A DNA stretch of 64,000 nucleotides, taken from the NCBI RefSeq assembly GCF_045037415.1, contig NZ_CP173438.1; one strand, given 5' to 3'. Of the stretch, positions 44,010 through 44,769 are shown piece after piece. The stretch comes from Escherichia coli. Its GTDB lineage: Bacteria; Pseudomonadota; Gammaproteobacteria; Enterobacterales; Enterobacteriaceae. Each line of letters starts with the position of its first letter. The stretch's first letter is position 1. Both the position numbers and the translations under genes were made by a program. The notes under the pieces are model-generated. The model did not search any database and had not been told where the DNA came from. It worked only from the letters and a program-made list of their open reading frames with translations.

Positions 44010-44016
44010 TCATTCA

Positions 44017-44769
44017 GTGAAAATCTGCTTAATTGATGAAACAGGCGCCGGAGACGGCGCCTTATCTGTTCTGGCGGCCCGCTGGGGGCTGGAACACGAT
44101 GAAGACAACCTGATGGCGCTGGTGTTAACGCCGGAGCATCTGGAACTGCGCAAGCGTGATGAGCCGAAACTTGGCGGCATCTTTGTTGATTTTGTTGGCG
44201 GAGCGATGGCGCACCGACGCAAATTCGGCGGTGGTCGCGGAGAGGCGGTGGCGAAAGCGGTGGGCATTAAAGGCGATTATTTGCCGGATGTGGTGGACGC
44301 CACCGCAGGGCTGGGGCGCGATGCCTTTGTGCTGGCTTCGGTCGGCTGCCGCGTGCGGATGCTGGAGCGTAATCCAGTGGTTGCCGCGTTGCTCGACGAT
44401 GGTCTGGCGCGTGGTTATGCGGATGCGGAAATCGGCGGCTGGTTACAGGAACGTTTGCAGTTGATTCACGCCTCCAGTCTGACGGCGCTGAGCGATATCA
44501 CCCCGCGTCCGCAGGTAGTTTATCTTGACCCAATGTTCCCGCATAAGCAGAAAAGCGCGCTGGTGAAAAAAGAGATGCGCGTGTTTCAGTCGCTGGTGGG
44601 GCCGGATCTTGATGCCGATGGATTGCTGGAGCCTGCGCAGTTGCTGGCAACCAAACGCGTGGTGGTAAAGCGTCCGGACTATGCGCCGCCGCTGGCGAAT
44701 GTCGCCACGCCAAACGCGGTAGTCACTAAAGGGCATCGCTTTGATATTTATGCCGGAACGCCGGTGTAA
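44017..44769 (+). CDS. rsmJ: 16S rRNA m2G1516 methyltransferase
   Basis: ORF-track frame 43912..44769; in-frame GTG at 44017 gives 250 aa starting [14 protein letters not shown], 8 nt after prlC stop. Confidence 0.85.

What the first reader, a model, noticed from the sequence alone, without database searches (positions are those of the whole stretch)
44010..44017. rsmJ appears to initiate at GTG 8 nt after the prlC stop
No in-frame ATG gives the expected RsmJ N-terminus. The GTG at 44017 yields a 250 aa product beginning MKICLIDE, whereas the ORF-track ATG (43912) would overlap prlC by about 100 nt.
Basis: partly seen in the sequence, partly recalled or inferred. Interest (0 to 1): 0.15.

Follow-up and report, generated by a model that had tools for sequence, protein, structure and literature searches.

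The report
rsmJ GTG start, already annotated
The E. coli ribosomal-RNA methyltransferase gene rsmJ does start at the GTG seven bases after the end of prlC, exactly as reference annotation already says, so the finding is correct but ordinary; the only new thing seen is a conserved RNA hairpin just inside the gene.

Summary
prlC ends at TGA 44007-44009, a 7-nt spacer follows, and GTG 44017-44019 opens a 250-codon ORF (MKICLIDE...) ending at TAA 44767-44769. RefSeq annotates exactly this CDS. The YhiQ crystal-structure chains and the NCBIfam RsmJ profile both begin at this codon.

In 26 Enterobacterales junctions, 22 have GTG and 1 has TTG at the aligned codon. The spacer ranges from -1 to 12 nt and falls in all three frames. 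In 16 junctions an in-frame stop leaves no alternative start.

Codon 43912 is GTG, not ATG. An in-frame ATG at 43975 was missed; some gene callers use it, but it is a by-product of prlC's Asp-Ala codons and is not conserved in frame.

The finding is already known and of low interest. The mechanism is inferred: weak, prlC-coupled initiation.

One thing noticed in passing is not annotated anywhere I looked. An 8-bp GC hairpin at 44043-44062 (rsmJ codons 9-16) is followed by a U-rich tail. It is maintained across the order by compensatory changes at 6 of 8 pairs. Among 5,426 E. coli genomes, 1,855 carry G:C, 3,257 A:U, 9 G·U and 0 A·C at one pair. It may be a partial terminator or attenuator after prlC, but that is untested.

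The parts
41967..44009 (+). prlC (oligopeptidase A) CDS, 680 aa; stop TGA 44007-44009
   Evidence: RefSeq annotation of the identical genome; ORF list
44000..44005 (+). Shine-Dalgarno-like TAAGGG inside the last prlC codons, about 10 nt before the GTG
   Evidence: Duplex with the 16S 3' end is -4.9 kcal/mol. This is modest: 27% of positions in the region score as well, so it does not discriminate between starts.
44010..44016 (+). 7-nt spacer tcattca between the prlC stop and the rsmJ start
   Evidence: Spacer length varies from -1 to 12 nt in other Enterobacterales.
44017..44019 (+). rsmJ start codon GTG
44017..44769 (+). rsmJ CDS (16S rRNA m2G1516 methyltransferase, 250 aa plus TAA)
   Evidence: NF008012 535.7 bits against a 422 cutoff; PF04445 348 bits; >99% identical to PDB 2oyr/2pgx; RefSeq CDS
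43906..43908 (+). TGA, the nearest upstream stop in the rsmJ frame (inside prlC)
43975..43977 (+). In-frame ATG, rejected as the start; formed by prlC codons GAT-GCG (Asp-Ala); would give a 264-aa product [19 protein letters not shown]...
43912..43914 (+). Further in-frame GTGs at 43954 and 43960.
44043..44062 (+). Conserved 8-bp hairpin AGGCGCCG-GAGA-CGGCGCCT within rsmJ codons 9-16 (+27..+46)
   Evidence: Terminator-like hit; -17.3 kcal/mol, z -3.35; covariation at 6 of 8 pairs, 96.8% paired, 0 of 500 shuffles reach it; E. coli haplotype counts
44063..44072 (+). U-rich tail TATCTGTTCT, made of rare codons TTA-TCT-GTT
44774..44805 (.). Strong hairpin between the convergent rsmJ and dtpB genes; probable bidirectional terminator
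   Evidence: -27.9 kcal/mol, z -6.8

Best explanation
rsmJ (formerly yhiQ) is translated from GTG 44017-44019, giving the canonical 250-aa RsmJ. The gene lies 7 nt behind prlC on the same strand. No sigma-70-like promoter was found between them. Inferred, not shown: ribosomes that finish prlC at UGA 44007-44009 re-initiate at the nearby GUG, or fresh 30S subunits load there onto the modest UAAGGG. A weak start codon, a weak SD and dependence on prlC translation would keep RsmJ output low relative to PrlC. The upstream in-frame codons (GTG 43912, 43954 and 43960; ATG 43975) are accidents of the prlC coding sequence.
For: Shown: RefSeq CDS coordinates equal 44017-44769. PDB 2oyr, 2pgx and 2pkw chains and NF008012 profile position 1 start at this codon. 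Most of the 120 best orthologue clusters are 249-251 aa and begin M[KNQ]ICL. In 26 Enterobacterales junctions with prlC directly upstream, the aligned codon is GTG in 22 and TTG in 1; three others use a start 9-12 nt upstream. The spacer takes values -1, 0, 3, 4, 5, 7, 8 and 12, covering all three frames. In 16 junctions an in-frame stop 3-168 nt upstream leaves no other start codon before the conserved N-terminus. E. coli ET350 has a 2-nt shorter spacer and a TAG stop but keeps the GTG. L126 has about 190 nt inserted after prlC but keeps the GTG, with an in-frame TAG 15 nt upstream. No sigma-70-like promoter in 41500-45000. A paper title cited in PMC5124237 states that Salmonella opdA (= prlC) is part of a heat-shock operon.
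Against: There is no direct experimental evidence on the N-terminus. rsmJ is absent from every held supplement of the TIS-profiling and N-terminomics papers searched, and the others are not held. The SD is not distinctive. In E. coli itself, and in other species with a 7-nt spacer, the frame stays open back to 43906, so a minor longer proteoform from ATG 43975 cannot be excluded by sequence alone. Translational coupling is inferred only from geometry.
Confidence: 0.93

Rival explanations
1. Translation starts, mainly or additionally, at the in-frame ATG 43975 inside prlC, giving a 264-aa RsmJ with a 14-residue extension ([14 protein letters not shown]).
For: The ATG exists and the frame is open. 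Gene callers chose the homologous ATG in two large protein clusters, P0004 and P0006. An anti-SD duplex of -5.9 kcal/mol, with bulges, can be drawn upstream.
Against: The ATG is formed by prlC codons Asp-Ala, so its presence is explained by prlC. It is in frame only in species with a spacer length of 1 mod 3. In species with 8-, 5-, 3- or 0-nt spacers the extension is out of frame or closed by stops. No family profile or solved structure includes the extension. It would need internal initiation within an actively translated ORF.
Confidence: 0.04
2. Translation starts at one of the upstream in-frame GTGs (43912, 43954 or 43960), as the mechanical longest-ORF rule suggests, giving a product of up to 285 aa.
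For: These are the first start codons after the in-frame stop at 43906.
Against: The objections to the ATG apply, and more strongly. The overlap with prlC would be 50-98 nt. At 43912 and 43960 the SD pairing is only -1.5 and -2.6 kcal/mol. No orthologue retrieved carries such an extension.
Confidence: 0.01
3. Translation starts downstream at the first in-frame ATG within the gene (Met33, about 44113), giving a product truncated by 32 residues.
For: It is the first ATG that does not overlap prlC.
Against: Residues 1-32 are conserved across Enterobacterales, are covered by NF008012 from position 1, and are part of the crystallised chains.
Confidence: 0.01

Closest known systems
E. coli K-12 rsmJ (yhiQ, b3497) as annotated in RefSeq, and crystallised as UPF0341 protein YhiQ (PDB 2OYR, 2PGX; Salmonella 2PKW)
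   Same: Same gene, same start codon position, same 250-aa length. Only residues 174 (S for T) and 208 (Q for R) differ from 2OYR.
   Different: Nothing of substance. This is an allele found in 100% identity in strain SK1144.
Translationally coupled adjacent genes in bacterial operons (stop and start a few nucleotides apart or overlapping, for example TAATG or ATGA junctions); established textbook knowledge
   Same: A 7-nt stop-to-start spacer here. Homologous junctions include TAGTG overlap (Erwinia psidii), TAAGTG (E. endophytica) and TAATG (Acerihabitans).
   Different: Coupling has not been demonstrated for prlC-rsmJ. It is inferred from geometry and the weak SD.
Intra-operon partial intrinsic terminators (attenuators) that set different expression levels for neighbouring genes, and ORF-internal 3' ends as described by Term-seq (Adams et al. 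2021, PMC7815308)
   Same: The hairpin at 44043-44062 has a GC-rich 8-bp stem, a 4-nt loop and a U-rich tail. It sits 34 nt after the prlC stop.
   Different: It lies inside the downstream coding sequence. The U-tract is interrupted and not conserved in all genera. No 3' end for prlC or rsmJ appears in the held Term-seq supplements.

Membership tests
RsmJ, 16S rRNA (guanine1516-N2)-methyltransferase (NCBIfam NF008012 equivalog; Pfam PF04445 SAM_MT) | Whole-protein score above the curated equivalog cutoff | tested here: met
   535.7 bits against a cutoff of 422; profile positions 1-249 of 250 align to residues 36-284 of the long ORF
RsmJ, 16S rRNA (guanine1516-N2)-methyltransferase (NCBIfam NF008012 equivalog; Pfam PF04445 SAM_MT) | SAM_MT domain present | tested here: met
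   PF04445, 348 bits against 26, profile positions 2-229 of 230
RsmJ, 16S rRNA (guanine1516-N2)-methyltransferase (NCBIfam NF008012 equivalog; Pfam PF04445 SAM_MT) | N-terminus coincides with that of characterised or crystallised members | tested here: met
   2oyr_A and 2pgx_A residue 1 equals the GTG codon; orthologues begin M[KNQ]ICL
RsmJ, 16S rRNA (guanine1516-N2)-methyltransferase (NCBIfam NF008012 equivalog; Pfam PF04445 SAM_MT) | Catalyses m2G1516 formation in 16S rRNA | not testable with these tools
   Reported for K-12 YhiQ by Basturea et al. 2012, as cited in PMC3531124. The paper itself is not held.
Translationally coupled gene pair | Stop of the upstream gene within about 10 nt of, or overlapping, the downstream start, on the same strand | tested here: met
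   7 nt here; -1 to 12 nt in 26 related junctions
Translationally coupled gene pair | Co-transcription of the two genes | tested here: inconclusive
   No sigma-70-like promoter in 41500-45000. The title of Conlin & Miller 2000 says opdA is part of a heat-shock operon, but the paper could not be read.
Translationally coupled gene pair | Downstream translation depends on upstream translation | not testable with these tools
   Needs prlC nonsense-mutant or reporter experiments
Intrinsic (Rho-independent) terminator or attenuator (for the hairpin at 44043-44062) | Stable GC-rich stem-loop | tested here: met
   8 bp, 7 G-C, loop of 4, -17.3 kcal/mol, z -3.35; conserved by covariation
Intrinsic (Rho-independent) terminator or attenuator (for the hairpin at 44043-44062) | U-tract immediately 3' of the stem | tested here: inconclusive
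   5 of 9 T in E. coli, made from rare codons TTA-TCT-GTT that are conserved in Enterobacteriaceae. Only 2-4 of 9 in Rosenbergiella, Photorhabdus, Providencia and Ca. Pantoea persica, where the stem is still kept.
Intrinsic (Rho-independent) terminator or attenuator (for the hairpin at 44043-44062) | RNA 3' ends mapped at the U-tract | tested here: inconclusive
   No prlC or rsmJ entry in the held supplements of two Term-seq studies. The files may be truncated, and other datasets are not held.
Any curated RNA family (Rfam 15) | Match at or above the gathering score | tested here: not met
   Best overlapping hit is STnc50, 21.3 bits against 55, E 0.97

The most novel reading that the evidence does not exclude
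The conserved hairpin plus U-rich tail in rsmJ codons 9-19 (44043-44072) is a functional RNA element embedded in the coding sequence. The most likely role is a partial intrinsic terminator, or a 3'-end-protecting hairpin, for prlC transcripts. It sits so close to the rsmJ start that the ribosome finishing prlC cannot mask it. Together with the conserved weak GTG start, it would set a low RsmJ:PrlC ratio. RNA-level selection here is strong enough to co-select an amino-acid change (Ala11/Thr11) with a synonymous change in Gly14.
Probability: 0.35. Interest if true: 0.4.

Novelty: already known. Interest (0 to 1): 0.1.

Why it matters
The start-codon call matters only as annotation hygiene. It confirms that the longest-ORF rule, and some automatic gene callers (264-273-aa products in public databases), over-extend rsmJ into prlC, and that the curated 250-aa model is right.

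The conserved GTG start, kept across five enterobacterial families even though a silent G-to-A change would make ATG, suggests selection for low expression of this rRNA methyltransferase.

The hairpin, if functional, would be a compact example of a regulatory RNA structure written into the first codons of a gene, where it constrains both synonymous and non-synonymous sites.

Tried and rejected
1. SD strength was tried as a discriminator between candidate starts. It was not informative: -4.9 kcal/mol at the true start, and 27% of positions score as well.

2. Direct experimental evidence for the N-terminus was sought. There are no rsmJ, yhiQ or b3497 entries in the held supplements of TRAINSPOTTER 2026, Fijalkowski 2024, Nakahigashi 2016 or Giess 2017. 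The Meydan 2019 supplements are not held, and neither is Basturea 2012.

3. A mapped RNA 3' end at the hairpin was sought. Nothing appears in the held supplements of Adams 2021 or TERMITe 2025. The Conway 2014 supplements are not held, and neither is Conlin & Miller 2000.

4. Rfam gave only sub-threshold hits.

5. I considered that the hairpin mimics 16S helix 45, the RsmJ substrate, which has a GNRA-type GGAA loop; this rests on my own knowledge. I judged it unlikely. The loop is GNRA only in Enterobacteriaceae and Erwiniaceae (GAGA, GAAA, GUGA) and is unrelated elsewhere (ACUC, AUCC, AUAA, ACCA, AAUC), while the stem is kept.

6. A small hairpin pairing the prlC stop with the first bases of the GTG (44005-44018) is not conserved, because the spacer sequences differ.

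7. The Orbaceae junction (L026) has no equivalent hairpin.

Full report
**Identity of the window.** The region around the finding is 100% identical to E. coli strain SK1144 (NZ_AP018784.2) and is present in 5,422 of 5,426 complete E. coli genomes. Window position equals record position minus 204,902. The local gene order is rlmJ (-), prlC (+), rsmJ (+), dtpB (-).

**Checking the observation.** The sequence shows prlC ending at TGA 44007-44009, followed by the 7-nt spacer tcattca (44010-44016). GTG 44017-44019 then opens a reading frame that runs to TAA 44767-44769, which is 250 codons beginning (M)[11 protein letters not shown].

Two details in the finding need correcting. The codon at 43912 is GTG, not ATG. 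The ATG at 43975 is the real competitor. It would give a 264-aa protein starting [19 protein letters not shown]. Automatic gene callers have chosen the homologous ATG in two large public protein clusters: P0004 (273 aa) and P0006 (264 aa, named from Enterobacter hormaechei).

**Which start is used: evidence from curated resources.**
- RefSeq/PGAP annotates rsmJ at exactly 44017-44769 in the identical genome, and at the homologous GTG in a strain about 5% divergent.
- The NCBIfam equivalog model for RsmJ (NF008012) scores 535.7 bits against a cutoff of 422. Its position 1 aligns to residue 36 of the long ORF, which is the GTG codon.
- The crystallised YhiQ chains 2oyr_A and 2pgx_A (250 residues plus tag) begin at the same residue. 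The Salmonella chain 2pkw_A aligns from residue 2.
- Most of the 120 best orthologue clusters are 249-251 aa and begin M[K/N/Q]ICL.

**Which start is used: comparative DNA evidence (the decisive test).** A degenerate DNA pattern for the invariant [10 protein letters not shown] motif retrieved 120 loci from species-representative genomes, and all of them encode an RsmJ homologue. Together with the E. coli records, 26 distinct Enterobacterales junctions have prlC immediately upstream.
- **Start codon.** The codon aligned to 44017 is GTG in 22 junctions and TTG in one (Enterobacter sp. Bisph1). Three others use a start 9-12 nt further upstream: Yersinia aldovae (GTG), Providencia vermicola (ATG) and Acerihabitans (ATG).
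- **Spacer.** The distance from the prlC stop to the start takes the values -1, 0, 3, 4, 5, 7, 8 and 12, so it falls in all three frames relative to prlC. No upstream extension can therefore be conserved.
- **In-frame stops.** In 16 junctions an in-frame stop lies 3-168 nt upstream with no other start codon in between. In those species the GTG or TTG is the only way to make the conserved N-terminus. Examples are Citrobacter, Kluyvera, Klebsiella sp., Serratia, Photorhabdus, Budvicia, Rosenbergiella and both Erwinia species.
- **Within E. coli.** Strain ET350 has a TAG stop and a spacer 2 nt shorter, but keeps the GTG and the downstream codons.
- **A natural insertion.** In one metagenomic contig (L126), about 190 nt are inserted between prlC and rsmJ. 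The gene still begins GTG AAA ATC TGC, with an in-frame TAG 15 nt upstream.

The ATG at 43975 is explained by prlC: it spans prlC codons GAT-GCG (Asp-Ala). It is in the rsmJ frame only in lineages whose spacer length is 1 mod 3.

**Mechanism.** What is shown is the short stop-to-start distance, its conservation as a tight or overlapping junction (TAGTG, TAAGTG and TAATG in relatives), and the absence of a sigma-70-like promoter in 41500-45000. The Shine-Dalgarno-like element is modest (UAAGGG, -4.9 kcal/mol) and is not better than 27% of positions in the region.

What is inferred is that initiation at the GUG is weak and largely coupled to termination of prlC translation, which would give low RsmJ output. 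The GTG is retained across Enterobacteriaceae, Erwiniaceae, Yersiniaceae, Morganellaceae and Budviciaceae, even though a G-to-A change would cost nothing at the protein level. That is consistent with selection for a weak start, but this too is inference. That prlC/opdA belongs to a heat-shock operon rests only on the title of Conlin & Miller 2000, as cited in PMC5124237; the paper could not be read.

**Experimental evidence.** None could be retrieved for either N-terminus.

**Something else at the same place: a conserved hairpin.** The terminator scan flagged a hairpin inside rsmJ at 44043-44062: AGGCGCCG-GAGA-CGGCGCCT, followed by TATCTGTTCT. This is +27..+46 from the GTG and 34 nt after the prlC stop. 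On its own the hit is not significant, because the scan found 6 sites against 4.3 expected. Four further results show the hairpin is real.
- **Stability.** It is stable (-17.3 kcal/mol, z -3.35) and is kept in the centroid structure of a 121-nt context.
- **Covariation across genera.** In 27 Enterobacterales sequences, 96.8% of cells form standard pairs, against 31-58% when the 3' partners are slid by 1-3 columns. Six of the 8 pairs show changes on both sides, and 0 of 500 shuffles reach the observed values. The loop varies (GAGA, ACUC, GAAA, GUGA, AUCC, AUAA, ACCA, AAUC), and so does the encoded peptide ([56 protein letters not shown]).
- **Haplotypes within E. coli.** Exact 63-mer counts for pair 31-42 are below. 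The G:C-to-A:U switch couples a non-synonymous change (Ala11 to Thr) with a synonymous one (Gly14 GGC to GGT).

| Pair 31-42 | Genomes |
|---|---|
| G:C | 1,855 |
| A:U | 3,257 |
| A·C mismatch | 0 |
| G·U wobble | 9 |

- **Synonymous constraint.** Codon entropy for codons 9-19 is 0.61 bits, against 1.22 bits for the other degenerate codons among 2-100. All the lowest-entropy 11-codon windows start at codons 3-10. The tail uses locally rare T-rich codons: TTA is 7% of Leu codons, TCT 9% of Ser and GTT 19% of Val.

The hairpin is lost in Budvicia and Acerihabitans. It is absent from Pasteurellaceae, Vibrionaceae, Aeromonas, Psychromonas and Orbaceae. No Rfam family matches it.

**What the hairpin may do (inference).** My best guess, at about 0.35, is a partial intrinsic terminator or a 3'-end-protecting hairpin for prlC transcripts. 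A ribosome terminating at the prlC stop would cover only a few nucleotides past the GTG. The hairpin could therefore form even though it is formally inside an ORF, and only a ribosome already about 5 codons into rsmJ could mask it.

Three things count against this. The U-tract is interrupted. It is not U-rich in Rosenbergiella, Photorhabdus, Providencia or Ca. Pantoea persica, although the stem is kept there. And no prlC or rsmJ 3' end appears in the held supplements of two Term-seq studies.

Alternatives are an mRNA-stability or processing element, or a structure that modulates early elongation or re-initiation. A mimic of 16S helix 45, the RsmJ substrate, was considered and judged unlikely because the loop is not conserved.

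**Verdict.** The start site is already the reference annotation, so novelty is nil and interest is low. The embedded, covarying hairpin is the only element here that is not, as far as I could find, annotated or described, and it deserves a cheap experimental look.

Noticed in passing
window 44043-44072 (+): An 8-bp GC hairpin plus U-rich tail lies inside rsmJ codons 9-19. It is conserved across Enterobacterales with compensatory changes at 6 of 8 pairs. E. coli haplotype counts are G:C 1,855, A:U 3,257, G·U 9 and A·C 0. It coincides with a synonymous-constraint island. It is not in Rfam, and no 3' end was found in the held Term-seq tables. It may be a partial terminator or stabiliser for prlC mRNA.
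   Followed up: partly
window 44017-44019 and homologous codons in L013-L122: The non-ATG start (GTG) is retained in 22 of 26 Enterobacterales junctions spanning five families, although a change to ATG would be silent at the protein level. This suggests selection for weak initiation.
   Followed up: partly
L126 1011-1200: A metagenomic relative carries an insertion of about 190 nt between prlC and rsmJ, containing a CCCCAGG...CCTGGGGA inverted repeat (ERIC/IRU-like, from memory). Downstream synteny also differs: argS instead of dtpB. The rsmJ GTG and the hairpin are unchanged.
   Followed up: no
L003 700-720 (E. coli ET350) and its rsmJ 3' end: This E. coli strain has a divergent prlC-rsmJ junction (TAG stop, 5-nt spacer, MQICL as in the Salmonella structure 2PKW). 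Its rsmJ C-terminus also differs (…GTPSVD, 252 aa), and a ribulose-phosphate 3-epimerase gene lies downstream instead of dtpB. This suggests recombination or rearrangement at this locus.
   Followed up: no
window 44774-44805: A very stable hairpin (-27.9 kcal/mol, z -6.8) with A/U-rich flanks lies between the convergent rsmJ and dtpB genes. It is a probable bidirectional terminator, and the simple terminator scan missed it.
   Followed up: partly
window 41928 vs 41967; 41815 vs 41764: The mechanical ORFs over-extend two neighbours as well. prlC is listed from TTG 41928 (693 aa) but annotated from ATG 41967 (680 aa). rlmJ is listed as 297 aa from TTG but annotated as 280 aa ending at 41764.
   Followed up: no
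window 40922-44769: Two rRNA methyltransferase genes flank prlC: rlmJ (23S m6A2030), which is divergent, and rsmJ (16S m2G1516), which is co-oriented.
   Followed up: no
window 6539-7887; 27157-36109; 37605-39026: Strain-specific content in the acid-fitness-island region: an IS1397 (IS3-family) copy, the chu/shu haem-uptake cluster between yhiD and dctR, and arsC without arsR/arsB next to a frameshifted pseudogene.
   Followed up: no
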